DNA from: Pristiophorus japonicus
Lineage: Eukaryota
NCBI RefSeq assembly: GCF_044704955.1
Contig: NC_092002.1
Coordinates: forward strand, 7,564,001 to 7,628,000
Direction: 5' to 3'
DNA length: 64,000 nt
The stretch's first letter is position 1, and each line of letters starts with the position of its first letter. Made by a program: the position numbers and the translations under genes. The notes beneath the pieces were generated by a model. That model saw only the letters and a program-made list of their open reading frames with translations. It searched no databases and was not told the origin of the DNA. Below are positions 842 to 34,426 of this stretch, piece after piece.

Positions 842-947
842 AAGGAGGTTCTGAACCAGGTTTTGCGTTACATTGCATTTCTCAACAGGCACATTAGCAA
901 CACTAAATCCCTGCTGAAGAATCATTATGTGGAGATAGATGAAAGTG
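842..947 (+). CDS. MEIOSIN: MEIOSIN exon, bHLH helix 2 ([35 protein letters not shown])
   Basis: ctcttttacag|AAG acceptor; G|gtgagt donor; phase 0 to 1; bHLH helix-2 pattern K.E.L...L.YI..L. Confidence 0.88.
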
Positions 948-3900
948 GTGAGTGTAATCCATCTTCAACTGAAGCAGCATCTTTATTGCTTAACAAGTCC
1001 CCCGTGAGTTACCCGATCCACATGTGCTGTCTCTGAGCTCCCGGCTTGGTGGACTTAAAGGTCCTATCTTCTTCCAGGCTTCTTCATGCTTTGGGCTGAC
1101 TCCCAACTGCACAGTCACAAATAGGGCAGCAGAGTTCCCTGGTCTAGAGTCCAGCGACTTCCTCGTGATTTTGAGAGCTTGATAGGCAATTAGGAATCGT
1201 CTTTCTTTTATTTGTTCTCTGGATGTGGGCAAGGCCGGCATTTACTGCCCATCCCTAATTTCCCTTGAGAAGCTGGTGGTGGGCCGCCTTCTTGTAACGC
1301 TACTTAAGAGATCTGCAAAGTATATATCCTAACCCAATGTGAAAAATTCCAATTCTGAATTAAGAGATTTGAGCTATCCCATCTTATCGAGCAACAAAAA
1401 ACCCAATCATCCAATTGATATGGTTGGATTTGAACCCGGGTCAAAGTTAAAAGGACAATGCACTTGACTCTTGCACCACTGGAAAGACTAGTTATGTTGT
1501 TTAAAATATAATTGGATGCCACATGGCAGAGTGAATCTGCTAGAGGAATGAGCTTTGATGGGCCAGACATCCTTTTCTCATCTCTGAATTTTCTTATGCT
1601 TTTACAAACATTCTTGTCCAATCCCTCCGTGGCCTCATCCTTACCTCTCTCTATAACCTCCTCCAACCCTACAACCCTCCATGGTCTCTTCGCTTCTCCA
1701 ATTCTGACCTCTTGTGCAGCCCCCAATTTCCATCACTCCGCCATTGGCGGCTATGCCGACAGCTGATATTGCCCTCAGCACTGGAATACCTCCCTCAACC
1801 TCTCCGCCTATCTCTCCTTTTTTAAGACGTTCCTTAAAACTTACCTCCTTGACCAAACTTTTAGTCACCTGTCCTAATATTTCCTTAACTGTCAGCTGTG
1901 ACTCAGTGGGTTGCACACCCGCCTCTGAGTCAGAAGGTTGTGGGTTCAAATTCCACTCAAGGACTAAAGTACAGATGATCTGGTCATTATCACATTGCTG
2001 TTTGTGGGAGCTTGCTGTGCGTAAATTGGTTGCTGCGTTTCCCACATTACAACAGTGACTACACTCCAAAAGTACTTCATTGGTTTTGAGACATCCGGAG
2101 GTCATGAAAGGTGCTATGTAAATATAAGTCTTTTTCTATTTTTCTTATGTGGCTCGGTGTCAAATGTTGTTTGATAACACTCCTGTGAAGTGCCTTCGCA
2201 TGTTTTACTATGTTAATTTTACTACCTTCTACCGACGTAAACTATAGGTGATCCAAAACTCAGCAGCCCGTGTCCTAACTTGCACCGAGTCCCGCTCACT
2301 CATCACCCCCTGTGCTCGCTGACCTACATTGGCTCCCGGTTGAGCAACATCTCGATTTGAAAATTCTCATCCTTGTTTTCAAATCCCTCCATGGCCTCAC
2401 CTCTCCTTATCTCTGTAATCTCCTCCAGCCCCACAACCTCCCGAGATGTCTGCGCTCCTCTAATTCTGCGCTCTTGCGCATCCCTGATTATAACCGCTCC
2501 TTCAGCTGCCTGGGCCCCAAGCTGTGGAATTCCCTCCCTAAACCTCTCCGCCTCTCTTTCCTCCTTCAAGATGCTCCTTAAAACCTACCTCTTTGACAAA
2601 GCTTTTGGTCATCTGCCGTAATTTCTTCTTACTTGGCTCGGTGTCAAATTTATTTGTTTTGTCTTAAAACACTCCTGTGACGTGCCTTGGGATGTTTTAC
2701 TACGTTAAAGGTGCTATATAAATATACGTTGTTGTTGTAATGTACCTTCAACTCAAAAGTGGACAGCCAACCACGTTTTCTTTCCTAGAATATTGCTTAA
2801 ATGGAGAGGAGTCTACAAGCCCGGAGGAAGCGGCGCAGAGTAACACAGAGGAGATAAGCCCTCCCTCCACACCTCCAAGCATCAAGAAGATGAGGCTGAG
2901 GAACATCTGTCCCAAGCCAAGGAAAAAGAAACGGGTAGAAAAAACAGGTAGAGTATTCTGGGCAAGGACTCGGCGAGCTTTCTTTTGTGAACTCTGAGCT
3001 CATCAACGAGCCCCTCCATTGAACATTTTCCCATTTAATCATCCAGTGTCAGCAACAAGCACTCCCAACTGGGATAGCACAGAATAATGCTCCCTCCACA
3101 CAGTCTCATCTAGAACACCCAGGGCAGGTACAGCACGGGGTTAGATACAGAGTAAAACTCCCTCTGCGCTGTCCCATCAAACACTCCCAGGGCAGGTACA
3201 GCTCGAGTTAGATAAAGAATAAAGCTCCCTCTACACTGTCCCATCAAACACTCCCAGGGCAGGTACAGCACGGGGTTAGATATAGAGTAAAGCTCCCTCT
3301 ACACTGTCCCATCAAACACTCCAGGGCAGGTACAGCACAGGGTTAGATAGAGAGTAAAGCTCCCTCTGCACTGTCCCATCAAACACTCCCAGGGCAGGTA
3401 CAGCATGGGATTCGATACAGAGTAAAGCTCCCTGTACACTGTCCCATCACAGACTCCCAGCATGGGTTAGATACAGAGTAAAGCTCCCTCTACACTGTTC
3501 CATCAAACACTCCCAGGGCAGGTACAGTGTAAAGCTCCCTCTGCTCTGCTCCAAAAGTGTGTCTCAGCTGAACCTCAGCAGAGTGCCACCTATTACACCA
3601 GACAATTTTTCTCACTGGTTATTTTGTGGCGTGTCTGTCCAATATAGTTCTGAGTTAGTAGTTTTGCACTGTGGGCCCGTGCCCATTAGGAACTGAGTTG
3701 AGAATGCCCCAAATCCTTTCACCCGCAGCCAAATCCTTTGTCCCCAAATCCCAGAGCTGAACGTCTAGTGTCTTAATAGCAACAACCGTTATATACACCA
3801 TATTGTTTCCTCACAGTTGTATGGAAGGTAATCAGAGGAATGAAAGTAAAACATCTTTGACTGAGGTTTAGTATTAAAATATTGACCAATGTGTTAAAAA

Positions 3901-6900
3901 TTCACAATTTTAAGTTAAAAATGATCAGCCAATCCATAATGTCGACTGTAGACACTTTGTGTTTTGGATTGATGTACACATTGAAGGAGTTGAACATTTT
4001 GCTTCCATGGTACACGCAGAAGCATACATAATATACTTGAGCTATCAGCATAGCTATATGTGCTTAAGTATTCTCGATGATCAGGATATTTTGTTCGGGA
4101 CAGCTGTGGGTTTTGGGGGTAATTTGCCAGCACTGTTCAGTGGGGTGGAATTGGGTTGTGTTGTAACCCAGTTCCCTGACTGGGCATTATGCTGTATATT
4201 TGGCTGAAGGCAATTTTCTGTTAACCAAGTCTTGGGAACGCAAAGCCAAACCGACCTCTGCCTCCACACAAGTGTCAGCTGTGGCTCAGTGGGTAGCACA
4301 CTCGCCTCTGAGTCAGAAGGTCGTGGATCCAAGTCCCACTCCAGGAACTTGATCACATAAATCTAGGCTGACGCTCCCAGTGCAGTGCTGAGGGAACGCT
4401 GCACTGCCAGAGGTGCCGTCTTTCAGATGAGACGTTAAACCGAGGCTCCGTCTGCTCTCTCAGGTGGATGTAAAAGATCCCATGATACTATTTCGAAGAA
4501 GAGCAGGGGAGTTATCCCTCAATATTTATCCCTCAATCAACATCACTAAAACAGATTATCTGGTCATTGTCACATTGCTGTCTGCGGGAGCTTGCTGTAC
4601 GTAAGTCGGCTGGAGTGTTTCCCACATTACAACAGTGACTGCATTCCCAAAGTACTTCATTGGCTGTAAAATGCTTTGAGACATCTGGTGGTCGTGAAAG
4701 GCGCTATATAAATGCAAGTCTTTTCACTCTTCTGTGGGCCTCGGAGAGGCTGGTTCAGAAAGCAGTAAGCTATTCTTGTGCACACAAGCGGCCTCGACTG
4801 AGCCAGTGAAAGAAATGCAATAGTTTTCAGTTTAATTGGTAAGTTTGCTCATTTTTCCTCCTATCACAGAACGGCGACAGGTGCTGAAATCACGCCGCCG
4901 CCTTTACAATGAGCTGGCGCATTACGACTACTCGCGCACCGACAGCCAGCGGGAGGTTAAGCCAGCGTCCTTGGATACTTCGTCCTCCAGCTCCTGTTCA
5001 CAGGACAACACAGTCAGGTCCCAAGGCCGCACTCTGTTCCTTACCTTGCTGGAGGTGGCAGAGTCAAGAGACCTTGGAGGATCCAGCCTCAGCAGCACGG
5101 GTAACTACTTGAAAGAGGGTTTCAGCCCGAATGAGGGAAGCTATGCATTTCCTTTATCTGTTCTTTGAATTAAGATGTTATGGTGACGACCCAGTGTCAG
5201 CTTGGCTCAGTTGGTAGCACACTCATCTCTGAGTCAGAAAGCTGTAGATTGAAGTCCTACTGCAGGACTTGAGCACATAAATGAATATGTAGTGTAGTAC
5301 GCGGGGAGGTGTTGCAATGTCAGCGATGACGTGTTTTCGGATGCGACGTTAAGCCTGGATCCCAACTGCCTGGTTCGTTAGTTCAGGTGGACATTAATGA
5401 TCCCAGTGGCACTATTTGGATACAAGTAGGGAGTACATTCTCCCCTGAACCAACACCACCAAAAGCACATTAATTGGTCGTTCAATCTCAGTGGTGTCTG
5501 TGTGATCTTGCTGCTGCACAAAGCGGCTGCCACATTTGGCCATGTAACGGCGCTCACTTCAATTTGTCGGGCGGAAGCGGCGTGATTGAGGAGTAACTTA
5601 AGTTTCTGTCACTTGGGCAGGGAAGCACGAGACGAACAGTGACCCAAAGTGCTCTCCTGAAAACGATGAGAAAAAGATGAATGGCAGTCACGACTCCAGC
5701 TTGTACGACCCGCCGGTTGGCTCTCCGTATCCAAGGTAACAGACGCAAACCGTGGACTGCATCGGGTATTTTTTCCAGTTGTCCGCTCCGCGTTGAAGGT
5801 GTTGATTCACTTGGTACATTTCAGCCTGCAACAGTAGCCTTCTTGTACCCCCAAACCTCATCCATCACCCCTGTTCTCACTACATTGGCTCCCGGTTCGG
5901 CAACACCTCGCTTGTAAAATTCTCATCCTCGTGTTCAAATCCTTCCGTGGCCTCGCCTGTCTCTATCTCTGTAATGTTCTCCAGCCTCACCGTCCCCCCT
6001 GAGATCTCTGCGCTCCTCCAATTCTGGCCTCTTGAGCATCCCCAATTTTTACCGCTCCACCATTGGCAGCCGTGCCTTCAGCTGCCTCAGCCCTAAGCTC
6101 GGGAATTCCCTCCCTAAACCTCACTGTCTCTACCATCTCTCTCCTCTTTTAAGACGCTCCTTAAAACCTCATCATCATCATAGGCAGTCCCTCGAAATCG
6201 AGGAAGACTTGCTTCCACTCTAAAAGTGAGTTCTCAGGTGACTGAACAGTCCAATAGGGGAATTACAGTCCCTGTCACAGGTGGGACAGACAGTGGTTGA
6301 GGGAAAGGGAAGGTGGGACGGTTTGCCGCACACTCCTTCCGCTGCCTGTGCTTGCTTTCTGCATGCTCTCAGCAACGAGACTCAAGGTGCTCAGCGCCCT
6401 CCCGGATGCACTTCCTCCACTTAGGGCAGTCTTTGGATAGGGACTCCCACGTGCCGGTGGGGATGTTGCATTTTATCAGGGAGGCTTTGAGGGTGTCCTT
6501 GAAACATTTCCTCTGTCCACCTGGGGCTCACTTGCCATGTCGGAGTTCCGAGTAGAGCGCTTGCTTTGGCTTAAAACCTACCTCTTTGACCAAACTTATG
6601 GTCACCTATCCCAATATCTCCTTATGTGGCTCAGTGTCAAATTTTGTTCACTAACACTCCTGTGAAGCGCCTTGGAATGTTTTACTACGTTAAAGGTGCT
6701 ATATAAATGCAAGTTGATGTTATAATTGTCTGCAGGCTATTCCTTCATGGGAGCATTGGAACATTGCGCCCGACCCCGATTCTCTCGTCCCCTGCCACCC
6801 GCACAAACCCAATTGGGGAGCCTCTGTCCCTGCCATGCAAGATCAGTCAATTCAGCTCAGACTGGGGTTTCAAGCTGCCTTCGTCTGGTCTGTATTGGTC

Positions 6901-9900
6901 ACGCTGCTCCAGGGTCACTCGCCGCTCCTTTTATGGCTCCGACCTGCCGCTGATGGTGTCTCGCAGGCCCGCGAGAGGCCATCAGCGGCAGATTGGGGCC
7001 ATAAAAGGAGTGACGAGAGGCCCCTGGAGCAGCGTGGCGGCGTACCACTGCAAGGTACAGCGCGAGCTGGTGCAGGAGGGCGATGGCAGCGACAAGGGAC
7101 GTCATCAAGGTCCAGGTCGGTGATTGGCGTGTGGGCAGGTACAGCAGGTGCGGCGAGGTCGGGGAGAAGGAACGGCGAGAGATTGTAGAGGGACGTGATC
7201 GGGGCCCAGGAGAGGCGTGAGTTCAGGGCCAGAAGAGGAAAGGACCCAGGGGCAGCACGGGCCAGCCCACACTGTGATATGTGTGCGCAATAGGTCCATG
7301 CAGCAGAGCTGGTCTCCAGTTGTCTTGATTAACCCTTGCTACTGGACCAAGACCTAGCTCTGTCAAGCCCGTGTGGTGGCTGGTGTGCGACGGCCACCCC
7401 ACGTTAAAAAAATCCACGTGCAGGCATCTTCCAACCTTCAACATGTAGTTCGGGACCTGGAATATTAGCTCCTTCATTGAAACACCTGTGAACTCATCCT
7501 TTTTTGGCGGGGACGCAAGTCATCTTTGCTTCGAGGGACTGCCATTGGGGCGGATTTTCAGATCTTCAGTGCTGCATTTTTCTCCCCGGAGTGGCAGCAT
7601 TGGTGATGGTGAGGCTTTCTGGCCGGGCAGTCTGCCTCTAGCGCCCCGCAACGATCCTCGGGTCGGGTTTTGCGGCTGTGCAGAGCAGTACCGCCCGGAA
7701 AAGCTGTGTGCAATGCCCTTGGTTGCGACACCGGTGCAAGTTTTGACTTCAGCCCGACCCGTCGCCCCGCAACGCAGCCCGCAGTAACCACCTGGGAAAT
7801 CAGGCAGTCCAACAATACCGACTGCAGAGAGGTAAGTGATGGACTCCTAAGGTAAGTGTGCTTCTTTGTTCTTTTAATTTTCTTTTGCGATATGTGTTGT
7901 GGTGGTGTGGGCAATGTTTTAGGAATGTTTTTTTGTGGGGTATTTTACGGTTTTTGTTTACTCCTCAGGCGTATCTCGGAGCTCCATGCCCGGATCTTTG
8001 GCTCGGGATTTTCCCGGTGTACAACGCCTCCCTTAGCGCTCCGCCCCACTCAGGTCCCAATTTTACTTACTGAGGCGCAATCTGTTCCCGGGCGCAAACT
8101 TTACCGCCCGCCACCATTACTGCCCCGAAATCAACAAAGCCGAAAATCCAGCCCATTTAATGTGTTTACTCGCTGAGCCGTCAATGCGACCAAACATCGT
8201 GACAACAGGAAGCAAGGCTTGCGGGCCAGGAGTTGCGCTCCCAACCCAGGGTTTATAGTAACGTGTACAGATGCGTGAGTGAAGAAGACATATGAAACCA
8301 GGGGAAAGCTGCAAAATTTACGCTCTTGGTAATTGTACCGTCTCGCTCGTTCTTTTCTCGCACAGTCTGAAAGATCAAAAGCTGGTTCACTACCTCTCGT
8401 CCCACGACGAAGACGATGATATCGACCGGAGTCCCTGGCTTCCACAGGAGTTGTTTCGAGGTGTGACATTTTCTTTCTATACTGCTTCTTTGCCCTCCCC
8501 AAAAAATGCACTGTTTATGTAAGCAAATTAGAAAATATTACTGTTCTGACAAGTGGATCTTAGGCTCCACTGGTCATAAGAACATAAGAAATAGGAGCAG
8601 TAGTGTGCCAGCTTGGTTAAGTGAATAACTAGGATAAATGATTCTGTGTTAGTTTGGATAAGTGACTAATTTACTGGTTTTCAAATCCCTCCATGGCCTC
8701 AACCCCTCAGTATCTCTGTAACCTTCTCCAGCCCTACAATCCTCTGAGATCTCTGCTTTCCTCCAGTTCTGGCCTCTTGTGCATCCCCGATTTTTATCGC
8801 TGCTGGATGTGTCTTGGCTCCACTGGTCATAAGAACATAAGAAATAGGAGCAGTAGTAGGCCATATGGCCCCTCGAGCCTGCTCCGCCAATCAATAAGAT
8901 CATGGCTGATCTGATCTTGGCCTCAATTCCACTTTCCTGCCTGTTCCCCATAACCCCTATCGTTCAAAAATATCTCTATCTCAGCCTTTAATATATTCAA
9001 TGACTCAGTCTCATGGGGTAGAGAGTTTCAAAGATTCACAATCCTCCGAGAGAAAAAATTCCTCCTCATCCCCGTCTTAAATGGGCGACCCCTTATTCTG
9101 AAATAAGAGCCCCCTAGCCCCCTAGTTCTAGATTCCCCCACGAGGAGAAACATCCTCTCAGCATCAACCCAGTCAAGCCCCCTCAGAATCTTATACATTT
9201 CAATAAGATCACCTGTCATTCTTCTAAACTCCAATGAGTATAGACTCAACCTTCCCTCATAAGACAACCCCTTCATCTCAGGAATCAACCGAGTGAAACT
9301 TTTCTGAACTGCCTCCAATGCAAGTATATCCCTCCTTAAATAAGTAGACGAAAACTGTACGCAGTACTCCAGGTGAGGTCCCATCAACTGTGTCATACTG
9401 TATTCAGCAATATTAATTTAGCACAAAAACAGAGTGTGGTGAGACCTCATTCTCACAGTCACCCATGCCTCTCTCCCACAGCACCTCCTAGCATTCTGTT
9501 ATAGAGCAGACACCTGGGAGCAGGTCACTTGCTGAAATTTTGGTTGAGAACTGAGTGTAATTCGCGTGTGTTTATACTGCTAGCACAGCTGGTGTGAGCC
9601 TGCACCCTACCTACTAACGGTGAAAATGAATATTCTGCTGAAGCAGGGACAGGTGGCAGATGAAATTTAATCCTAACAGATGCAAAGTGTTGCTCAACGG
9701 ATGGAATAATGTGCGACATACGTACACAATGAACGGAATAGAATTAGTGCAAGGTGACTCAGAAAGGGACCTGTGATAGACTACTGTTCGGAACTTGTTG
9801 CATATCTGTGAAGCTTGTTGGGACATTTAAAGAAAAGAAAGACTTGCATTTATGTAGTGCCTTTCATGACCACCGGACGTCCCAACATGCTTTACAGCCA

Positions 9901-24900: not shown

Positions 24901-27900
24901 AGGCCGAAGTGAGGTCCACCTTGGTGAACAGCTTGCCGCCTGCCAGCGTGGCAAAAAGATCCTCCGCTCTCGGAAGCGGGTATTGGTCTTGTAGTGACAC
25001 TCGGTTGATGATGGCCTTGTAGTCGCCATAGATCCTGACCGAGCCATCCGTTTTTAGGACGGGGCCAATGGTGTTTGCCCAGTCGCTGAATTCAACGGGC
25101 GAAATTATGCCCTCTCTTAGCAACCTGTCCAGCTCACTCACAATTTTCTCCAGCATCACATACGGCACAGCTCTGGCTTTATGGTGCACTGGTCTGGCGT
25201 CCGGGGTGATGCGCATCACTACTTTGGTACCTTTGAAAGTCCCGACACCAGTTTGAAATAGTGACTCAAACTTTTGTAGGACCTGTGAGCATGAACTTCG
25301 CTCCACAGATGAAATGGCGTGCACATCCCCCCCTTTTCCAGTTCATCTCGGCTAGCCAGCTCCTCCCCAAAAGCGCGGGACCATTTCCCAGGACAATCCA
25401 GAGTGGCAGCCGGTTCTCTGATCCATTATGTGTGACCACCAACATTGCACTGCATAGCACTGGGATTTTCTCTTTGGTGTACGTCCGTAATTGCGTGTCA
25501 ATGCATTCTAGTTTGGGTCTGCTATGAGTGGCCATAGTTTCTCGAATTGTTGGACACTCATAAATGACTGGCTGGCTCCTGTGTCCAGCTCCATGTGTAC
25601 CGGGGTGCCGTTTAACAGTACTCTCATCATCATAGGTGGCGTCTTTGTGTATGAGCTGTGGATGTTTGCCTGAACCCGCTGAACTTCAGCGTCCATTGCT
25701 GTGTCCCAAGCATAACCCTGCCTTGCAGACCCCTCTTGTGGTTCATCCGCTTCGTAAACCAGCCTTGCTGCGGGCTTCCTGCACATTCTGGCTAAATGTC
25801 CACTGAAGTTACAATTTCTGCAGATAAATTGTTGAAACCTGCAGGTTTTCGCAGCATGTCTGCCCCCGCACCTCCATCATGAGCTGAGATTGTTGTGAAC
25901 AAAAGAGCTGTTACCAGGCATTCCTCTCCGATTATCTCTGATTACTCTTGAGCACTCTGTTTGTGGGTGTCAATGGTCCCATCCTGGGACGTATTGTCCC
26001 TTGTGATGGTGTAAATGTCTGTTCAACCTGCCATTGTCTCTGTTGAGGACCCACCCTAGAGTCTGTTACTGCCTGGTTGGTGCCGAATTGCCCTTGCCTG
26101 CCTGCGGGGTTTTGAGTCGCGTTTACCATGTTAACTCCCTGCTCCATCGCCACGTTGGGAGCAGAGTTGCGCGCGTATATGATCTTGGTTTCCTCCTCCA
26201 CCGCCATGAAGGTTTGAGCCATCAATGCCGCTTCTTCCAAGGTCAAGTCCTTGGTCTCAATTAGCTTCCTAAAAATCCCGGCATGACCAATGCCCAATGA
26301 AGAAATCCCGTAACATCTCCCCTCTGCAGGTGACTGCGAACTTAGAGGCTGGCCAAGCGCCGAAGGTCCGCAACAAAGTCTGGTATGCTCTGCCCTTCCC
26401 GATGTCAGTGCGTATAGAATCGGTGTCGGGCCATGTGTATACTACTCGCCGGTTTGAGGTACTCACCGATCAGTTTGCTGAGCTCCTCAAAGGTCTTCTC
26501 TGCCGGCTTCTCGGGTGCGAGCAGGTCTTTCTTCAGCGCGTACGTCTTAGGTCTACAGCTGGTCAGTAGATGCGCCCTTCGCTTGTCAGCCGCTGCCGCT
26601 CCCAGCCAGTCCTTTGTGACAAAGCTCTGCTGGAGCCTCAACGAAATCGTCCCAGTCCTCACCAACACAGTACCGTTCCTCTGTGCTACTGGTGGCCATT
26701 CTCGTGAGTCGTTGATTCCCGTTTCTCGTCGCCAAATGTTGTGTCCTTAGACTCTACTGTAAATCAACACAAGGCACATACTGGAGACAAGGTCACTCTG
26801 ACCTGTACCTTTATTCAGGACCAAGTAGTGATGACCCTGCATGAGACCTCCCTTTTATATACCTGGATGACCAGGTGAGGAGTGTCTCCCACAAGTTCAC
26901 CCCCTGTGGTCAAGGTGTGCATTTCTTAGGTGTATACAGTGTACAGTGTTACATGAAGGTTACAGTTAAATGAAGGTTACATACATGGCTCTCTTGATGT
27001 TGAATTAGGGAGAGAAGTACAAATATCTAATTGTGACAATTCCAGCCTTAGAATCGTAGAATCTTACAGCACAGGATGAGGTCGTTTAGCCCACTAGGCC
27101 CATGCCAGCTCTTTTGAAAGAGCTATCCAATTAGTCCCACTCATTCCCCACAGCCCTGCAACATTTTTCCTTTTTAAGCACATATCCACATCCTTTTTGA
27201 AAGTTACTGTTGAATCTGCTTCCATCGCCCTTTCAGGCAGCTTCTTCCAGATCACAACAACTCGCTGCGTAAAGAAAGTCTCCTCATCTCCCTCTTGGTA
27301 CCTTTTGCCAATATCTTCAATCTCTGTCCTCCAGTTATCGACTCTCCTGCCAGTGGAAACAGTTTCTCCCTACCTACTCCGTCAAAACTTTCACAATTTT
27401 GAACACCTCTATTAAATCTCCCCTTAGCCTTCTCTGCTCTAAAGGAAATAATCCCATCTTCTCCAGTCTCTTCACATAACTGAAGTCACTCATCCCTAAT
27501 ACCATCCTAGTAAATCTTCCTCCACACCCTCACCAAGACCTTCCCACCCTTCCTAAAGTATGATGCCCAGAATTGGACACAATACTCCAGCTGAGGCTTA
27601 ACCAGTGATTTATAAAGGTCTTACATTTCGCTCAGTGATTTATGGAGGTTTAGCATAACTACCAGTGATTTATAAAGGTATTGCATAACTACTAGTGATT
27701 TATAAAGGTGTCGCATAACTACCAGTGATTTATGGAGGTTTAACATGGTTACCAGTGATTTATGAAGGTTTAACATAGTTACCAGTGATTTATGGAGGTT
27801 TAACATAACTTAGCGTCTCGTCTGTTGAAGGGAGAGTTGTGCATTGGAGTGTAGCTGGTTATCTGACTCCCTGACTGTCATCTCCAGGACAGCGATGAAA

Positions 27901-30900
27901 GCGAACGTTGGCTGTCCTCGAGTGATAACATGGAAGACAATGACATCACCTGGACCCCGTACTGCAGAGGAAAGCTTTCGCAGCAAACTGCTTCGAGCAA
28001 GCAGAAGCGCACCAAGAACGTCAGCCAAGCCAACCACAGCAAGATGCGCAGGAAGAGGAGCTGCACCCTCCAGCTCAAGAAGAAATGTGTCAACGGCTTC
28101 ATCATGTTCTGTCGTATTAACCGGAGGCTGTACATCAGGTAGAGAGGCATGCGGGCACATTATACAGTGCATCAGCGAGAGGGGAGAGAGTGAGATATGG
28201 TACATCAGAGAGAGGGTGAGATACAGTACATCAGAGAGAGGAGAAGGTGAGATACAGTACATCATAGAGGGGAGAGGGTGGGATTATGGTACATCACAGA
28301 GGGGAGGGGGTGAGATATGGTACATCAGAGAGGGGGGACAGTGTGAGAGAAGAGTTTTTTTTATTCGTTCATTATTACCTTAACAATACTATAAATCACT
28401 GGCAAAGCCAATATTTATTGCCCATCCCTAGCTGCCCTTGAGAAGGTGGTGGTGAGCCGCTGCCTTGAACCGCTGCAGTCCATTTGGTGAAGGTGCTCCC
28501 ACAGTGCTGACTTTGTCAACAAGGTTTTGGTACAACCGAGTATCTCGCTGGGCCATTTCAGAGGGCAGTTAAGGGTCAACCACATTGCTGTAGGTCTGGA
28601 GTCACATATAGGCCCAGACCAGGTAGATTTCCTTCCCTAAAGGACATTAATAAACATGTGTGGGTTTTTACAACAATCCGGTAGTTTCATGGTTACTAGC
28701 TTTTCATTCCAGATTTATTTAATTAACTGAATTTAAATTTCCCCAGCTGCCGTGGTGGGATTTGAACTCGCGTATCTGGATCACTAGTCCAGTAATATTG
28801 CTATTATGCTACTGTACTCTTAGCATATAGAATGTGACACAGTACATCAGTTACGAAGATTGAGTCTTCATTCCTGTTCTTTCAGCAAGTTTGCATTATC
28901 TCCCTGCGCTCCCCTCCACTCCTGCTTAGGACCACAGAGTCTTCACTCACCTCAGTCCTGCACTTCGCAAAGATATTCCTTAAACCCTTCTGTGCTACTA
29001 CCTCCCCCCCGCCCTCCCCATCTCTGATCTCAAAGTCTACCCCTTTGCTCACCTCCCCGAACCTTGCTCCCATTACTGTCCAGCTGTCGCCTCTGCGAAG
29101 CGCACTGGGACACTTTATTACCTTAATGACGCGATAAAAATTCATGCCCTTGTTGCAAATTCTAGAAGAAAGGGGAGGTGAGAGGATCCACTATTATGAG
29201 TCCTGGGTAGAAATGAATTAAAGCAGGAACATAGTACATTGAGTCTTGATTTCACAGCGGGGAATCCGGGGTGGAGGAAGGGCTTGAATAAAGCAACATC
29301 TTGTGGTTGCTAAGTAACCATGCACTGTCGTGCCAGATTCTCTACTGTTCATATTTAAGTCAAAGTGATTGATCAGAATCCCTCGTGTTTCCACAGTGAC
29401 CATCCCGGAACTGCTTCTACGGTTGCTACCAAAGCTTTGGCTCACGTGTGGCGCACCATGTCAAAAAATGAACGCCGGCCATACTGGTAAGTTGGGCAGA
29501 AAAATGGTGCACCACGGAGACTCACGGTGGCAGCTATCTAATCAGCAGGGGAAAGCGTAGGAGTTTTGTTTTGACCAAGAGAGGGCAAGAGCTCCTCCAG
29601 TGGCTCTGTTGGTGTTTTGCTTATTCATTCTCAGGATGTGGGCATCGTTGGCAAGGCCGGCATTTATTGCCCATCCCTAATTGCCCCTTGAGAAGGTGGT
29701 GGTGAGCCGCCTTCTTGAACCGCTGCAGTCCGTGTGGTGAAGGTGCTCCCACAGTGCCGTTAAGGAGGGAGTTCCAGGATTTTGACCTAGCCACGATGAA
29801 GGAACGGCTGATATATTTCCAAGTCAAGATGGTGTGTGACTTGGGGGTGATGGTGTTCCCATGCGCCCGCTGCCCTTGTCCTTCGAGGTGGCAGTGGTCA
29901 CGGGTTTTGGAGGTGCTGCCGAAGGTAGTCATATTGCCCTGTGTAGAACTGAGGCATACAGACCAGAAAGATCCCAGGATCGATCTCTGGTCCGTGCTGA
30001 GGTGACTGTTCACCGCGGGCAACGGCAGGACAATGCAATTGGTCCCAGTGCCCACGGGCTAGGGAGAGGAAAAATTCCGATCACAAAGCAAAGAAGTTGC
30101 GCTAAACGTTTGCAAATTACTGGTTAGACCTCAGCTGGAGTATTGTGTCCAATTCTGGGCCCCACGCTTTGGGAAGGATGTCAAAGCCTTGGAGTGGGTG
30201 CAGAGGAGGAAGGTACCAGGGACTTCAGTTATGTGAGGAGAATAGAGAAGGTGGGATTACTCTCCTTGGAGCAGAAAAGGGTAAGAGGAGATTTAATAGA
30301 GGTGTTCACAGTTATGAAAGGTTTTGATAAAGTAGATGGGGGAGAAACTGTTTCCAGTGGCAGGAGTGTTGGTAACCAGTGGACACAGATTTAAGATAAT
30401 TGGCAAAAGAACTAAGAGGGAGATGAAGAGAATTTTCTTTACTTGGCGAGTTGTTGTGATCTGGAACGCGCTGCCTGAAAGGGCGGTGAGAGCAGATTCG
30501 GTAGTAAACTTCAAAGGGAAATTGGATAAATGCTCGTAACAAAGAAATTGCTGGGCTATGGGGAAAGAGCGGGGGAGTGCGACCAATTAGATAGCTCTTT
30601 CAAACAGCCGGCACAGACACAATGAGCCAAGTTATCACCTCCTGTGCTGTATAATTTCTATGGTTCACTATTTGTGCTGGAAAGTGAGTGGATGGTACAT
30701 TGAGGATTTGATCAGGCTTGGCTGTGATGCCCCCTGTAGCCAAGCAGCCTGCCAACAAAAAAGAAAAAGAATGACTTACATTTCTATAGCGCTGTCCCAA
30801 AGCGCTTTACAACCAATGAAGTACTTTTGGAGTGTAGTCACTGTTGTAATGTGGCAGCCAATTTGCGCACAGCAAGCTCCCACAAACAGCAATAATGACC

Positions 30901-31663
30901 AGATGACCTGTTTTTTTAGTGATGTTGGTTGAGGGATAAATATTGGCCAGGATACCAGGAATAACTCCCCTGCTCTTCTTCGCAATAGTGCCCGTGAGAT
31001 CTTTTACATCCACCTGAGAGGGCAGACGGGGCCTCGGTTTAAGGTCTCCTACGAAAGACGGCACCTCTGACAGTGCAGCACTCCCTCAGCACTGCACTGG
31101 GAGCGTCAGCCTAGATTTATGTGCTCCAGTCCCTGGAGTTGCTTCTTGGATGAGGAGCCAGAGGGCTGCCTGCACCCACGGTGCTGCACCACACCACAAG
31201 TCAGCATCTTTAGGAGACGAAGGGAGAAAACTGATTAGAAAAAGAGCCAGACGGTGTTCCCACCCCAGATTGTTACCCAGTGACTCATGTGTATCGAGTG
31301 AGAATCAGGCTCGAGTAATCGAAAACAAAAAATAAACAATGGGACAGTATGTAAACTGAAAGTACACCGCCCTCCCACACACTTACTTTCTCTTTTATGC
31401 TGTCACCTGCCCTTATTAAACCTGTATCTTCGTTTACATACAGTAATCCCATTAATCACAGAAAGTGGATACTGCAATCCCACTAATCACAGAAAGTGGC
31501 TGTGGGGTCGCTGGCTTAAGCCGGCTCTTAGCAAGATGAGAATTTTATTTAAATTTTCTATCCCCTCTTTCTCGTCTCATCTCTCTTGATTCTTTCCAGA
31601 GGACAGTTCCACTGCCCTAGCTGCCGCTATGGTACCTCGCTAAAGTGCCCATTTTCCCTGAGT

Positions 31664-31700
<37 letters not shown>

Positions 31701-34356
31701 GTTTATCAGGTACAACACAGGCTAGATGTAGAGGAAAGTTCTCTCTGCTCAATCCCAACCTAAGAGCGTCCGTAACACCGCCCGTAACATCACCCGCCTC
31801 CGCCCTTACCATCTGCTGCTAAAGCCCTCATCCATGCCTTTGTTACCGCTAGACTTGACTATTCCAACGCACTCCTGGCTGGCTTCCCACATTCTACCCT
31901 ACATAAACTAGAGGTGATCCAAATCTCGGCTGCCCGTGTCTTAACTCGCACCTTGGTGTCCTGCTCACCCATTACCCCCTGTGCTCGCCGACCTACATTG
32001 GCTTCCAGTTAAGCAACGTTTCGATTTCAAAATTCTTATCCTAATTTTCAAATCCCTCCATGGCCTCACCCCTCCCTGTCTCTGTAATCTCCTCCAGCCC
32101 CACAACCACCCGAGATGTCTGCGCTCCTCTAATTCTGCCCTCTTGAGCATCCCTGATTAGAATCATTCAACTATTGGTGGCCATGCCTTCTGTTGCCTGG
32201 GCCCCAAGCTCTGGCACTCCCTGCCTAAACCTCTCCGCCTCTCTAACTCTCTTTCCTCCTTCAAGATTCTCCTTAAAACATACCTCTTTGACCAAGCTTT
32301 TGGTCACCTGCCCTAATTTCTACTTATGTGGCTCGGTGTCAAATTTTTTAACTCATAATACTCCTGTGAAGCGCCTTGGAACATTTCACTATGTTAAAGG
32401 CGCTATATAAATATGTTTTGTTGCTGTTTTCCCATATTGCAGCGGTGTAAGTTGTTCCACTTATCTCACCAGTCATATCTGAGTGAGGAGAGATTGAATA
32501 GATTGAGCCTATACTCCCTGGAGTTTTGAAGATTGAGGGATGATCTCATTGAAACATATAAGATTCTGAGAGAGATTGACAGGGTAGACATTGAGCTGGC
32601 TGGGGAGTCTGGAGCTAGGGGGTCACGGTCTCAGGATAAGGGGTCGGCCATTTAAGACTGAGATGAGGAGGAATTTCTTCACTGAGTGTTGAGAACCTTT
32701 GGAATTCTCTATCCCAGAGGGCTGTGGATGCTCAGTCAATGAATATATTCAAGGTTGAGATCGCTAGGTTTTTGGACTGTTAACGGAATCGAGGGATATG
32801 GGGATAGGGTGGGAAAGTGGAGTTGAGGTCGAAGATCAGCTATGATCTTATTGAATGGCGGAGCAGGCTCGAGGGGGCGTGTGGCCTACTTCTGCTCCTA
32901 ATTCTTATGTTCTTAAGAGTGGCATCTCTGAGTAAGATGGGCAGTTTGGTGGCAAGCTGTGGGATATTTAGTACAGTGGGTTGACACTGCTGAAGTGGAT
33001 GTTAAAGATCCAATGGCTCTCTCCCAGTATCCTAGCCAACTCCCTCAACCAACACCACCAAAAGTTAGCTGCTCATTCATCCCATTCCTGTTTGTTGGAT
33101 CTTGCTAGTGTAAAATGGCTGCCACGTTTTCCAACATCACAAGGGGCGTTATTCTTCAAAGTAATTGTGTGAGACACGCTTTGAAATGTTTCTGCGAGAT
33201 GTGATAAGATGCCGCACAAATGTTTTCAATTTGTCATGTCATGTTAGTGCACTGCTTTGCCACCGAAAAAAAAATTTTTTATTACTGACTCTAAATTTCC
33301 AAATTAATTTTGCAATCCTAGTCCGAATGAGGTGCTTAAATTGCACCATTAACCACTTTTTTTTAGCCAGGCTCTTTAACTTTCTCAACCTGCAGCGAAG
33401 GTTCACCAGACTGATTCCTGGGATGGGGGGATTGTCCTATGAGGAGAGATTGAGTAGACTAGGCCGATATTCTCTAGAGTTTAGAAGAATGAGAGGTGAT
33501 CTAATTGAAACATACAAAATTCTTGCAGGGCTTGACAGGGTAGATGCAGGGAGGATGTTTCCCCTGGCTGGGGAGACTAGAACCAGGGGTCATATAGTCT
33601 CAGAATAAGGGGTCGGCCATTTAGGACTGAGATGAGGAGAAATCTCTTTACTCAGAGGGTGGCGAATCTTTGGAATTCTCTACCCCAGAGAACTTGAAGG
33701 CTCAGTTGTTGAGTACATTCAAGGCTGAGATCGATAGATTTTTGACTATTAAGGGAATCAAGGGATATGGGAACAGTGCAGGAAAATGGAGTTGAGGTAT
33801 AAGATCAGCCGTGATCTCATTGAATGGCGGAGCAGGCTCGAGGGGCCAAACGGCCGATTCCTGCTCCACTTCTTATGTTCTTCTGTTCTTTAGAAGAGAT
33901 TTGTTAAGCAAAGGGATCTTTTAAACTCTCTTGATAAAGTCTGCAATTTTGCAACAGTCCCTTAAGCCAATTGAAATTTGTGCTCTTTCATGGTAACCTT
34001 CAGCATGCCTGCCAAGCGGCAGTGTGTTAAACGGGTGGAAATTGGGACAGCAATAAGTGCGGTTTTCAGCAGGAGGAGCTGATCGGCTGATATTTGATAA
34101 CCTGGGAGTTGTGCGTTGTGCTGCTTCTACAGTCAGAGGTTGGGCCTGATTAAAGCAGGAGGGGAGGAGATATGATCTTTTAGCCAATACTCAATGTGCC
34201 TCTCTCTCTCTTTCTCCTTTTTTTTTTCTCTCTGTCATTCTCAGTATCAAGGCCCGTGAATTCAGCAAGATGAATAACCGCATCGTGAGGCTGGATAGCT
34301 CGTCGAGCGAAGAGAGGGAGGAGGTGGAAATGCCCGAACCTCTCCACCTCCTGTAA
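842..34356 (+). CDS. MEIOSIN: MEIOSIN/BHMG1 orthologue (bHLH + HMG-box meiosis initiator), 5'-partial; coding exons 842-947, 2789-2947, 4870-5100, 5621-5735, 8366-8460, 13948-14091, 19368-19489, 20197-20400, 27888-28138, 29397-29486, 34245-34356
   Basis: All 11 exons have AG acceptors, the 10 internal ones have GT donors, and the phases match; total 1629 nt, open to TAA at 34354-34356. Motifs recalled from mammalian MEIOSIN appear in the right order: [11 protein letters not shown] (bHLH helix 2), [92 protein letters not shown]. Confidence 0.92.
1615..2738 (+). mobile_element. Two L2-like LINE 3' ends with a nested SINE fragment (about 1890-2135)
   Basis: [30 protein letters not shown] is the typical L2 ORF2 C-terminus; tail tacgttaaaggtgctatataaat followed by (gtt)n. 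Confidence 0.8.
2789..2947 (+). CDS. MEIOSIN: MEIOSIN exon with basic NLS-like PKPRKKKR
   Basis: ttttctttcctag| acceptor; ACAG|gtagag donor; phase 1 to 1; EYCLNG...STPPS...[13 protein letters not shown]. Confidence 0.88.
3085..3545. repeat. Tandem minisatellite, about 67-68 bp unit, about 7 copies
   Basis: Repeated unit agggcaggtacagcacggggttagatacagagtaaagctccctctacactgtcccatcaaacactccc. Confidence 0.92.
4273..4722 (+). mobile_element. Near full-length DeuSINE (SacSINE1-like)
   Basis: tRNA head with A/B boxes, Deu-like core gatgagacgttaaaccgagg…gatcccatg…gaagagcagggg, L2-like tail gaaaggcgctatataaatgcaagtcttt. Confidence 0.88.
4870..5100 (+). CDS. MEIOSIN: MEIOSIN exon ([12 protein letters not shown]...[11 protein letters not shown]...)
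   Basis: tttttcctcctatcacag| acceptor; CGG|gtaact donor; phase 1 to 1; open frame. Confidence 0.82.
5195..5560 (+). mobile_element. Older, diverged DeuSINE
   Basis: ttggctcagttggtagcac head and a degenerate Deu-like core. Confidence 0.65.
5621..5735 (+). CDS. MEIOSIN: MEIOSIN exon ([19 protein letters not shown]...GSPYP)
   Basis: tttctgtcacttgggcag| acceptor; CAAG|gtaaca donor; phase 1 to 2, which is needed to join the 5100 and 8366 exons. Confidence 0.72.
5860..6720 (+). mobile_element. L2 3' end interrupted by an RTE insertion
   Basis: L2 sequence resumes after the RTE (cttaaaacct|acctctttgacc…) and ends with the aaaggtgctatataaatgcaagtt tail. Confidence 0.8.
6170..6569 (-). mobile_element. 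RTE-clade LINE 3' end with 10-bp TSD
   Basis: (TGA)n tail (catcatcat on +) after gggactgccta; TSD cttaaaacct at 6160-6169 and 6570-6579. Confidence 0.85.
6903..7543 (+). mobile_element. Non-autonomous element with RTE-type 3' end
   Basis: Same family at about 50020-50410 (+) and 62970-63460 (-); ends in caagtcatc…tcgagggactgcc like the RTE 3' end. Confidence 0.7.
7547..8154. mobile_element. PIF/Harbinger-like MITE
   Basis: TIRs ggggcggattttc … gaaaatccagccc; 3-bp TSD ATT at 7544-7546 and 8155-8157. Confidence 0.8.
8366..8460 (+). CDS. MEIOSIN: MEIOSIN exon ([31 protein letters not shown])
   Basis: tcttttctcgcacag| acceptor; GAG|gtgtga donor; phase 2 to 1; resembles the mammalian QKLVFY..acidic..PWLP segment. 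Confidence 0.85.
8828..9385 (-). mobile_element. CR1 LINE 3' fragment
   Basis: Minus-strand PHLEYCVQF…[20 protein letters not shown]…SLEFRRM.GDLIE; terminal ttcttatgttcttatg repeat. Confidence 0.88.
9835..13575 (-). mobile_element. DeuSINE split by a 3.3-kb DNA transposon (SINE parts 9835-10207 and 13527-13575)
   Basis: The SINE sequence …tatgtgctc|aagtctctggagtgggacttgaaccc resumes exactly after the transposon. Confidence 0.8.
10208..13526 (-). mobile_element. Harbinger/PIF-type DNA transposon carrying a degenerate Myb/SANT-like gene; no transposase seen
   Basis: TIRs gggctagaacctccactttt / revcomp gggatagaacttctactttt; 3-bp TSD CAT/CAA; minus-strand [23 protein letters not shown]…QCRK motif, ATG at 13097, GTAAGT donor at 12806-12801; further coding remnants at about 11150-11935. 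Confidence 0.8.
13948..14091 (+). CDS. MEIOSIN: MEIOSIN exon (…[27 protein letters not shown])
   Basis: Conserved [10 protein letters not shown] motif; CAAG|gtaacg donor; exact acceptor ambiguous among in-frame AGs ending at 13947/13950/13953/13956. Confidence 0.85.
14231..14631. repeat. Fold-back palindrome of two CR1 3' ends (about 198-bp arms, 5-nt loop)
   Basis: Minus-strand CR1 tail 14231-14428 and plus-strand CR1 tail 14434-14631 meet at ctctct-acccc-agagag. Confidence 0.9.
15054..16320. mobile_element. Solo LTR (TGTAATG…) inside a SINE head, itself interrupted by Tx1-like LINE copies
   Basis: TSD CCAGG at 15049-15053 and 16321-16325; LTR body (gagtggc.tagccagtcacgtgatg…gaacccatgaagcaaatacattaca) matches the uninterrupted copies at 42282 and 57074. 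Confidence 0.78.
15078..16072 (+). mobile_element. Two tandem 5'-truncated Tx1/L1-like LINE 3' ends (about 15078-15662 and 15680-16072)
   Basis: ORF2 C-terminal remnants ([34 protein letters not shown]) occur twice, each followed by an AT-rich 3' UTR. Confidence 0.72.
16647..17280. mobile_element. PIF/Harbinger-like MITE
   Basis: TIRs gggaccgaaattg … caatttcgacccc; 3-bp TSD CTG at 16644-16646 and 17281-17283. Confidence 0.78.
17505..18349 (-). mobile_element. Truncated Gypsy element: 5' LTR (18074-18349), PBS and gag N-terminus
   Basis: TG…CA LTR; PBS TGGCGACGAG (revcomp at 18062-18071); gag [31 protein letters not shown]…[14 protein letters not shown]. Confidence 0.8.
18706..19285 (-). mobile_element. 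RTE 3' end interrupted by a solo LTR
   Basis: (cat)n aggcagtccctcg end; same RTE sequence as 6170-6569. Confidence 0.8.
18779..18993. mobile_element. Solo LTR with 5-bp TSD CTTAG
   Basis: TG…CA ends; cttag at 18774-18778 and 18994-18998. Confidence 0.82.
19368..19489 (+). CDS. MEIOSIN: MEIOSIN exon ([11 protein letters not shown]...NLTLK)
   Basis: atttttcctccttacag| acceptor; AAG|gtacga donor; phase 1 to 0; matches the mammalian (A)FFEEVCL motif. Confidence 0.82.
20197..20400 (+). CDS. MEIOSIN: MEIOSIN exon (DDPDQ...[12 protein letters not shown]...LLQE)
   Basis: ctttgctttgcccag| acceptor; GAG|gttact donor; phase 0 to 0; DHCYL motif followed by a Ser-rich stretch. Confidence 0.85.
20590..20960 (+). 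mobile_element. DeuSINE
   Basis: B box, Deu-like core and the cattgctgtttgtgggagcttgctgtgcgc segment. Confidence 0.75.
22380..26990 (-). mobile_element. Near full-length, frameshifted Ty3/Gypsy LTR retrotransposon
   Basis: LTRs 22380-22632 and 26737-26990; TSD CTCTT; PBS TGGCGACGAG next to the 5' LTR; PPT gggggggaggtga next to the 3' LTR; gag ATG at 26699; protease LDTGAS; RT ([17 protein letters not shown]); RNase H (LETDHKPL); integrase ([24 protein letters not shown]), in Gypsy order. Confidence 0.95.
27050..27620 (-). mobile_element. CR1 LINE 3' fragment
   Basis: Revcomp of ggagtattgtgtccaattctggg… CR1 ORF2 end and 3' UTR. Confidence 0.78.
27601..27810. repeat. 30-bp tandem repeat, about 7 copies, CR1-derived
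   Basis: accagtgatttat(g/a)(g/a)aggtt(t)a(g/a)cata(a/g)ct in exact 30-bp register. Confidence 0.9.
27888..28138 (+). CDS. MEIOSIN: MEIOSIN exon, start of HMG box (…TWTP…[20 protein letters not shown])
   Basis: gtcatctccag| acceptor; CAG|gtagag donor; phase 0 to 2; HMG helix 1 N-G-F-I-M-F. Confidence 0.93.
28160..28345. repeat. Degenerate GA-rich tandem repeat, about 27-32 bp unit
   Basis: gagata(c/t)(a/g)gtacatcagagagggg repeated about 6 times. Confidence 0.75.
29397..29486 (+). CDS. MEIOSIN: MEIOSIN exon, HMG box middle ([30 protein letters not shown])
   Basis: gtgtttccacag| acceptor; TG|gtaagt donor; phase 2 to 2; HMG W..M...E..PY signature. Confidence 0.93.
29621..29925 (-). mobile_element. 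LINE 3' end (CR1/L2 superfamily; same family at 28360-28510, 54080-54795 and 61625-62410)
   Basis: Shared ttattcattc…gatgtgggc…gcaaggccggcatttattgcccatccc end; ORF2 remnant SWNSL..TV….GLQRFKK. Confidence 0.75.
30120..30662 (+). mobile_element. CR1 LINE 3' fragment
   Basis: [10 protein letters not shown]…[15 protein letters not shown]…[14 protein letters not shown]. Confidence 0.85.
30765..31140 (-). mobile_element. DeuSINE
   Basis: Reverse complement of the 4273-4722 family. Confidence 0.8.
31765..32425 (+). mobile_element. L2 LINE 3' fragment
   Basis: [17 protein letters not shown]…[13 protein letters not shown]; tail aaaggcgctatataaat. Confidence 0.85.
32475..33890 (+). mobile_element. 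Two CR1 3' ends (32475-32915 and 33390-33890)
   Basis: [44 protein letters not shown]; ttcttatgttct ends. Confidence 0.85.
34245..34356 (+). CDS. MEIOSIN: MEIOSIN last coding exon ([36 protein letters not shown])
   Basis: Long polypyrimidine tract ending in tctcag|; phase 2; end of HMG helix 3; TAA at 34354-34356. Confidence 0.9.
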
Positions 34357-34383
34357 GACGTCTTCCTATTCTGAGACACGCAG

Positions 34384-34384
<1 letters not shown>

Positions 34385-34426
<42 letters not shown>
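34385..34426. repeat. (CG)n(CA)n microsatellite just after the MEIOSIN stop codon
   Basis: gcgcgcgcgc acacacac…. Confidence 0.9.

What the first reader, a model, noticed from the sequence alone, without database searches (positions are those of the whole stretch)
842..34356. Probable chondrichthyan MEIOSIN with an intact HMG box, hidden in 33 kb of TE-filled introns
Seen: 11 exons splice in consistent phase into one 542-aa open frame containing bHLH helix 2 and a complete HMG box. Known: MEIOSIN works with STRA8 to start meiosis in mammals and has this bHLH+HMG layout. Inference: the two-domain meiotic switch, with short linker motifs ([23 protein letters not shown]), predates the split between cartilaginous and bony vertebrates. 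Those conserved motifs in an otherwise divergent linker are candidate interaction or phosphorylation sites.
Basis: partly seen in the sequence, partly recalled or inferred. Interest (0 to 1): 0.7.

Follow-up and report, generated by a model that had tools for sequence, protein, structure and literature searches.

The report
Sawshark MEIOSIN gene, already annotated
These are 11 of the 14 coding exons of a shark's MEIOSIN gene, which likely helps switch germ cells into meiosis as it does in mice; the gene is already named in databases and cloned from another shark, so it is ordinary apart from two side leads.

Summary
Confirmed, but known. Eleven AG/GT exons (842-34356) give one 542-aa frame identical to residues 92-633 of the database protein 'meiosis initiator protein isoform X1' of Pristiophorus japonicus; three more coding exons lie upstream of the window. 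Orthologues are named in 16 elasmobranch species, and Shimada et al. 2026 (PMC13637641) cloned catshark Meiosin with testis co-expression of Stra8. Stra8 with a bHLH is in this genome. Two side leads: (1) DHCY fits the HCF-1 binding motif (human MEIOSIN peptide bound HCF1 in a 2026 preprint) and lies on a phase 0-0 exon missing exactly from 8 of 27 elasmobranch records; against: sharks carry a disfavoured proline at Y+2, and mouse MEIOSIN IP-MS lists no HCF. (2) bHLH+HMG proteins of amphioxus and molluscs group with MEIOSIN in both domain trees and keep the basic-region Glu/Arg that 10 of 10 vertebrate MEIOSINs lack, so the layout likely predates vertebrates. The scan noted an invertebrate (sea urchin) counterpart before, on other DNA. 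Splice junctions were not tested with reads.

The parts
842..947 (+). Coding exon 4 of 14 (first in window): bHLH helix 2, aa 92-126 of P0061
   Evidence: helix 91-117 predicted
2789..2947 (+). Exon, phase 1-1, aa 127-179; basic KPRK stretch, candidate nuclear localisation signal (inferred)
   Evidence: KPRK shared with tetrapods
4870..5100 (+). Exon, phase 1-1, aa 180-256, disordered linker
5621..5735 (+). Exon, phase 1-2, aa 257-294, disordered linker
8366..8460 (+). Exon, phase 2-1, aa 295-326, carries PWLP (8433-8444)
13948..14091 (+). Exon, phase 1-1, aa 327-374, carries [12 protein letters not shown] (motif at 14016); alternative acceptors in database isoforms X2 and X3
19368..19489 (+). 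Exon, phase 1-0, aa 375-415, carries LFxxVxLSP
20197..20400 (+). Window exon 8, phase 0-0, 68 aa (416-483); weakest donor of the ten; missing exactly in 8 elasmobranch database isoforms (likely cassette exon)
20269..20280 (+). DHCY (aa 440-443): matches the D/E-H-x-Y HCF-1 binding consensus; followed by L-P in sharks
27888..28138 (+). Exon, phase 0-2, aa 484-566: TWTP, basic stretch and HMG helix 1
29397..29486 (+). Exon, phase 2-2, aa 567-596: HMG helix 2 and start of helix 3
34245..34356 (+). Last coding exon, aa 597-633 and TAA: end of HMG helix 3, acidic tail
23149..25342 (-). Broken LTR-retrotransposon pieces in the intron after window exon 8: integrase core (23149-23640) and reverse transcriptase (24689-25342); not part of the protein
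   Evidence: rve E 9.9e-11; RVT_1 E 0.008, under the cut-off

Best explanation
This is the 3' part (11 of 14 coding exons) of a shark MEIOSIN gene encoding a 633-aa protein with a helix-loop-helix, a long predicted-disordered linker and an HMG box, which likely starts meiosis by binding meiotic promoters together with STRA8. By analogy with mouse, the HMG box likely binds DNA; the bHLH, which lacks the usual basic-region Glu/Arg, likely serves to dimerise with STRA8; short fixed linker motifs ([18 protein letters not shown]) likely recruit co-activators such as TRRAP/NuA4 and possibly HCF-1. Shown here: exon structure, identity, domains, a Stra8 gene with bHLH in the same genome. Inferred: expression, partners, function.
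For: Identity to the named record P0061; 18 of 20 best hits named meiosis initiator; 75-92% identity to 9 other elasmobranch and 37-43% to 11 tetrapod proteins; HMG and bHLH trees place it inside vertebrate MEIOSIN; one DNA match for exon 9 in G000; AlphaFold2 gives two bHLH helices and three HMG helices, the rest pLDDT under 50; Stra8 bHLH exons at G000:C15:56230103-56230303 and from 56231806; flanking EML-family and VASP-like genes and OPA3 on the same contig (their human neighbourhood of MEIOSIN on 19q13 is recalled). PMC13637641: catshark Meiosin cloned and co-expressed with Stra8 in testis; mouse bHLH needed for STRA8 binding; TRRAP, RUVBL1 and STRA8 in mouse IP-MS.
Against: P0061 has no Pfam HLH hit at E<=0.5; 7 of the 9 other elasmobranch proteins scanned score 12-19 bits, under the 20.7 cut-off, and 1 has no HLH hit at all besides P0001. 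Expression, junctions and partners were not tested in this species. SIX4/5-type and DMPK-type matches are not on this contig near the gene. All function is carried over from mouse and zebrafish.
Confidence: 0.9

Rival explanations
1. Window exon 8 is a splice switch for HCF-1: the long isoform would dock HCF-1 (and through it OGT and H3K4/H4 modifiers) by DHCY, and the isoform without the exon would not.
For: DHCY in 56 of 69 named-search proteins; all 13 without it have a 39-68 aa gap over the motif in the pairwise alignments run. Exactly exon 8 is missing in 8 of 27 elasmobranch records (8 species; 4 of them also have a full form among the hits), against 1 of 27 for the size-matched 77-aa phase 1-1 exon. 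A matching block is missing in lizard (P0023, P0036, Logan-derived P0027), snake, caecilian, newt and ground-squirrel records. Weakest donor. Human MEIOSIN is named among 41 new HCF1-binding peptides; aromatic H-4 and small x residue fit. Three Kelch_HCF genes in G000. HCFC1 and OGT act at meiotic entry in mice.
Against: 19 of 19 elasmobranch motifs have proline at Y+2, which the same preprint found strongly disfavoured (44 of 44 lobe-finned/tetrapod motifs have serine). No 'hcf' or 'host cell' entry in the mouse MEIOSIN IP-MS file (the mouse motif was not seen here). Only 66 of 347 consensus peptides bound; a shuffled linker gives the pattern 3.5% of the time. Motif absent in bowfin, Dallia, lamprey, amphioxus, pangolin, kangaroo rat and echidna records. 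No exon-8-less isoform among the 3 records of this species. Isoforms are database models; 90% clustering favours seeing large skips.
Confidence: 0.35
2. Shark MEIOSIN would act mainly without STRA8, through its HMG box, as proposed for zebrafish and hagfish, the bHLH being a decaying relic.
For: Weak Pfam HLH scores; basic-region Glu/Arg absent; mouse protein keeps partial activity without bHLH (PMC13637641).
Against: The bHLH is nearly invariant among 10 elasmobranchs and 21 of 60 positions match tetrapods; Stra8 with open bHLH exons is present; catshark co-expression; tetrapods lack the same basic residues yet need the bHLH for STRA8 binding.
Confidence: 0.07
3. It is another HMG factor (SOX, HBP1/BBX/CIC, HMGB) or a dead copy, and the exons are not spliced together.
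For: PDB hits are SOX/HMGB boxes, best E 8.8e-07; no read-level test of junctions was obtained.
Against: No solved MEIOSIN appeared among the 42 PDB hits, so these are the nearest on file; trees separate it from SOX, HMGB and CIC/BBX-like boxes at 98/98; open frame, canonical sites, one copy, and a 634-aa relative with every exon comes from a 2,099-base Logan contig (P0017).
Confidence: 0.02

Closest known systems
Pristiophorus japonicus 'meiosis initiator protein isoform X1' (UniRef100_UPI00398F8A3A, P0061)
   Same: Identical over all 542 residues encoded in the window.
   Different: Nothing; the record has 91 more N-terminal residues from three upstream exons.
Cloudy catshark Meiosin (Shimada et al. 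2026, PMC13637641; P0005 is a 564-aa record of that species)
   Same: bHLH + HMG layout, cloned, testis co-expression with Stra8.
   Different: The 564-aa record lacks window exon 8 with DHCY; which form the paper cloned is in a figure I could not see.
Mammalian MEIOSIN/BHMG1 (e.g. ground squirrel P0073, elephant P0074, koala P0070)
   Same: Both domains, [20 protein letters not shown] in the same order.
   Different: Shark keeps His56 and a longer basic region, has DHCYLP instead of DHCYLS, and ends 21 residues after the HMG helix.
Amphioxus BHMG1-like (P0139, P0252) and mollusc bHLH+HMG proteins (P0154, P0156)
   Same: bHLH then HMG; first 12 HMG residues identical in amphioxus and shark; same clade in both domain trees.
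   Different: They keep H-R-x-x-E-R-x-R-H in the basic region (14 of 14) and lack the vertebrate linker motifs; role in meiosis untested.
HCF-1 binding motif D/E-H-x-Y (bioRxiv 10.64898/2026.03.19.712392)
   Same: Core consensus in a disordered region, aromatic H-4, small x.
   Different: Proline at Y+2 and leucine at Y+1, both disfavoured in that study.

Membership tests
MEIOSIN/BHMG1 | C-terminal HMG box of MEIOSIN type | tested here: met
   PF00505 29.0 bits over cut-off 25.4; three helices; nested in vertebrate MEIOSIN
MEIOSIN/BHMG1 | N-terminal bHLH | tested here: met
   Helices 53-76 and 91-117 predicted; groups with tetrapod MEIOSIN bHLH at 100/98. Pfam HLH alone does not detect it. Only helix 2 is in the window
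MEIOSIN/BHMG1 | Best hits are MEIOSIN, single copy | tested here: met
   one DNA match in G000
MEIOSIN/BHMG1 | Conserved neighbourhood (reader: FBXO46, SIX5, DMPK) | tested here: inconclusive
   EML-family exon 78 kb upstream, VASP-like exon at +107 kb, OPA3 1.5 Mb away on C28; SIX4/5-type on unplaced C586, DMPK_coil on other contigs; FBXO46 not searched; human gene order recalled
MEIOSIN/BHMG1 | Germ-cell expression at meiotic entry; exons joined in RNA | not testable with these tools
   No read-level test obtained; shown for catshark testis in PMC13637641
MEIOSIN/BHMG1 | Binds STRA8 through the bHLH | not tested
   Stra8 bHLH exons present; binding shown in mouse only
HCF-1 binding motif | D/E-H-x-Y in a disordered region | tested here: met
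   DHCY 440-443, pLDDT about 32-35
HCF-1 binding motif | Hydrophobic H-4 and small x residue | tested here: met
   Phe at H-4, Cys at x against rules
HCF-1 binding motif | No proline at Y+2 | tested here: not met
   Pro in 19 of 19 elasmobranch motifs; disfavoured
HCF-1 binding motif | Measured binding to the HCF-1 Kelch domain | not testable with these tools
   Reported for a human MEIOSIN peptide; which peptide is in Table S1, not seen
Canonical E-box-binding bHLH | E-[RK]-x-R in the basic region (DNA-contact role recalled) | tested here: not met
   0 of 10 vertebrate MEIOSIN; 67 of 70 other G000 bHLH; 14 of 14 invertebrate bHLH+HMG
SOX / HMGB / CIC-BBX HMG factors | HMG box falls in these clades | tested here: not met

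The most novel reading that the evidence does not exclude
MEIOSIN is older than vertebrates and than STRA8: it descends from a bilaterian bHLH+HMG factor, kept in amphioxus and molluscs, whose bHLH bound DNA itself. Vertebrates lost the DNA-reading Glu/Arg and turned the bHLH into a STRA8 dock (the shark basic region is the half-way state; lamprey still has helix 2, so hagfish loss is secondary), and jawed vertebrates added an HCF-1 motif on a cassette exon whose skipping is shared from sharks to mammals and tunes meiotic entry.
Probability: 0.3. Interest if true: 0.65.

Novelty: already known. Interest (0 to 1): 0.3.

Why it matters
The finding as given adds nothing new: the gene is annotated and a shark orthologue is cloned. 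The side leads could matter. Shimada et al. leave open whether the ancestral MEIOSIN had a bHLH because they did not sample more distant species; amphioxus, mollusc and lamprey records found here speak to that directly and suggest a candidate meiotic-entry regulator for invertebrates. A skippable HCF-1 motif would link MEIOSIN to HCFC1 and OGT, both already tied to meiotic entry in mice, and is testable with one RT-PCR and one peptide assay.

Tried and rejected
RNA support: no RNA holder listed (one run of unknown kind); no reads were laid, so junctions and exon skipping in this species remain untested by reads. STRA8 and MEIOSIN as sister copies of the invertebrate gene: rejected for now; the shark STRA8 bHLH ranks other bHLHs above the invertebrate ones, falls elsewhere on a long branch, and bHLH_STRA8 does not hit the invertebrate proteins; only a sub-0.9 Atlas score (0.76-0.78) points that way. 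Whole-protein search of G000 with the amphioxus protein ranks window exon 9 first but at E 1.13, not significant. Synteny with SIX5/DMPK: not found. Pfam on single exons: only a weak HMG hit. A minor-spliceosome link: the paper uses MEIOSIN only as a marker. The alignment search for invertebrate relatives returned only 3 amphioxus records, so the range beyond amphioxus and molluscs is not settled. Literature searches 59, 60 and 101 let MEIOSIN drop out of the terms and are uninformative. No other Pfam-detectable gene among 9 non-transposon window ORFs scanned; short exons may be missed. No complex prediction was run: no whole STRA8 or HCF-1 protein was held.

Full report
Observation. Splice-site inspection gave 11 exons from 842 to 34356, all AG/GT with matching phases, 1629 nt, 542 aa and a stop. 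Introns total 31,886 nt, and 58% of these bases have a second copy in the DNA fetched here; one intron holds broken integrase and reverse-transcriptase pieces. The window is G000:C28:7564001-7628000; exon 9 DNA has one match in the genome.

Identity. A search with exon 9 returned 60 proteins; the best is 100% identical and named meiosis initiator protein of Pristiophorus japonicus, and 18 of the 20 best are so named. The 542 aa equal residues 92-633 of isoform X1, P0061. The missing 91 residues lie in three exons upstream of the window, at about C28:7552991, 7554436 and 7559500. Counting, orthologues are named in 16 elasmobranch species. The HMG box passes Pfam (29.0 bits, cut-off 25.4); the bHLH does not, but AlphaFold2 gives two helices there and three in the HMG box, with 498 of 633 residues under pLDDT 50.

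What is in print. Shimada et al. 2026 (PMC13637641; I read the outline, sections 3, 5, 8, 13, 39, passages, the legends of the supplementary PDF and searched the tables; figures not seen) cloned cloudy catshark Meiosin, found it co-expressed with Stra8 in testis and aligned it with bHLH and HMG marked. They show that mouse MEIOSIN binds STRA8 through the bHLH and co-purifies with TRRAP, RUVBL1 and RUVBL2. Ishiguro 2020 was not read; it is cited through these papers.

Partner and neighbourhood. A Stra8 gene is on C15: last exon, bHLH_STRA8 match of 64.4 bits, two open bHLH exons. An EML-family exon lies 78 kb upstream and a VASP-like exon at +107 kb; OPA3 is 1.5 Mb away on the same contig. That these neighbour MEIOSIN in human is recalled. 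The only SIX match on C28 is 3.9 Mb away and of SIX1/2 type by its recalled signature; the SIX4/5-type match is on unplaced C586, and DMPK_coil matches are on other contigs.

Linker motifs. Against 11 tetrapod rows, 66 of 420 linker positions are fixed, versus 41 of 64 in the HMG box; the runs are [26 protein letters not shown] and SSS. DHCY fits the D/E-H-x-Y consensus bound by HCF-1. A 2026 preprint (10.64898/2026.03.19.712392; passages and sections 5-6 read, supplements closed) names MEIOSIN among 41 new binders; that the bound peptide is this DHCY is my inference. DHCY is in 56 of 69 proteins from the named searches, DHSY in frogs, and no such motif in bowfin, Dallia, lamprey, amphioxus, pangolin, kangaroo rat or echidna records. 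Against: sharks have proline at Y+2 (19 of 19; serine in 44 of 44 lobe-finned and tetrapod motifs), which that study found strongly disfavoured; the mouse IP-MS file has no HCF entry. HCFC1 and OGT are tied to meiotic entry in PMC11448500 and PMC13625397 (passages), neither through MEIOSIN protein in what I saw.

Cassette exon. The motif lies on window exon 8 (204 nt, phase 0-0, weakest donor by a crude matrix). Exactly these 68 residues are missing in 8 of 27 elasmobranch records from 8 species; 18 of the 27 were aligned pairwise, the rest carry the motif. The 77-aa phase 1-1 exon is missing in 1, the 53-aa one in 1, parts of exon 6 in 3. A matching 39-59 aa block is missing in 7 tetrapod records, including a Logan-derived lizard-like protein and a ground-squirrel isoform; exon boundaries there were not checked in DNA. 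None of the 3 records of this species lacks it. These are database models, and 90% clustering favours large skips. A search for MEIOSIN + isoform + exon skipping gave 3 papers; one reports altered Meiosin splicing after hnRNPC loss without naming the exon in the passages seen (PMC11967818).

Deeper origin. The profile search also found a lamprey protein (P0126), amphioxus proteins (P0139; one source already calls a relative BHMG1) and mollusc proteins (P0154, P0156). Amphioxus and mollusc-type proteins carry HLH and HMG hits. In the HMG tree (63 rows, 64 columns) vertebrate MEIOSIN, amphioxus and mollusc-type rows form one side at 98/98, and at 100/98 and 98/99 when either invertebrate group and six long outgroups are dropped. 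In the bHLH tree (61 rows; 5 fragmentary outgroups dropped and 70 thinned to 36) MEIOSIN joins amphioxus at 99/90 and molluscs at 97/83. The amphioxus bHLH scores shark MEIOSIN at 30-31 bits against 20.8 for the best of 70 other G000 bHLHs; the pooled invertebrate profile separates them by only 1 bit. The ESM Atlas puts MEIOSIN clusters first for the amphioxus protein (0.93) and second for the mollusc one (0.91). Caveats: short alignments, long branches flagged by the tool, ingroup chosen by similarity. All 14 invertebrate bHLHs keep H-R-x-x-E-R-x-R-H; 0 of 10 vertebrate MEIOSINs have E-[RK]-x-R, against 67 of 70 other bHLHs; the shark keeps the His and has Gln at the Glu and Arg places. The lamprey model starts in a helix-2-like stretch (6 bits, a lead only). 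MEIOSIN + amphioxus gave 0 papers; MEIOSIN + invertebrate gave 9, of which a sea-anemone preprint lists Meiosin as lost in some species without domain detail in the passages seen; one search gave no paper on this origin. Most subscription papers are not searched.

Verdict. Real gene, correctly read, already known: interest 0.3. The most novel reading (pre-vertebrate origin with loss of DNA-reading residues, plus a skippable HCF-1 motif) is put at 0.3; its origin half is better supported than its HCF-1 half.

Noticed in passing
P0139, P0247-P0252 (amphioxus); P0154, P0156 (molluscs); 11 unnamed similar proteins: bHLH+HMG proteins that group with MEIOSIN in both domain trees and keep an intact basic region; candidate invertebrate MEIOSIN orthologues.
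   Followed up: yes
P0126, P0246 (Lampetra, 690 aa): Lamprey MEIOSIN-like model begins in a helix-2-like stretch, so upstream bHLH exons may be missing from the model; bears on whether hagfish lost the bHLH secondarily.
   Followed up: partly
G000:C15:56230103-56270615 (L033, L016): Stra8 gene with open bHLH exons and last exon; no LxCxE motif was located in a quick regular-expression scan of part of the locus, middle exons not mapped.
   Followed up: partly
G000:C12:72.37-72.41 Mb, C15:1.43-1.46 Mb, C34:4.45-4.47 Mb and 2.61 Mb: Three Kelch_HCF gene loci; on C34 the last Kelch exon match lies 1.8 Mb from the others, perhaps an assembly or duplication issue.
   Followed up: no
L009:1925-2440 (-), L027:2986-3420 (+), L032:795-1673 (-): Neighbours: EML-family coiled-coil exon upstream, VASP-like EVH1 exon and a sphingolipid delta-4 desaturase exon downstream.
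   Followed up: partly
P0076, P0226-P0228 (pangolins); P0079, P0229-P0232 (kangaroo rats); P0084/P0233, P0086 (ray-finned fish): MEIOSIN records that lack any D/E-H-x-Y; frogs have DHSY.
   Followed up: partly
window 22886-26746 (-): Degenerate LTR-retrotransposon (integrase, RT and protease-like ORF pieces in several frames) inside the intron after exon 8; similar gag-like pieces at 17423-17815.
   Followed up: partly
window 34383-34425; 35544; 36309: (CA)n tract just after the stop codon; first ATTAAA at 35544 and AATAAA at 36309, so the 3' UTR may be 1.2-2 kb.
   Followed up: no
window 3110-3540 and 27700-27810, 28170-28340: Short tandem-like repeats beside exons 2 and 9, seen.
   Followed up: no
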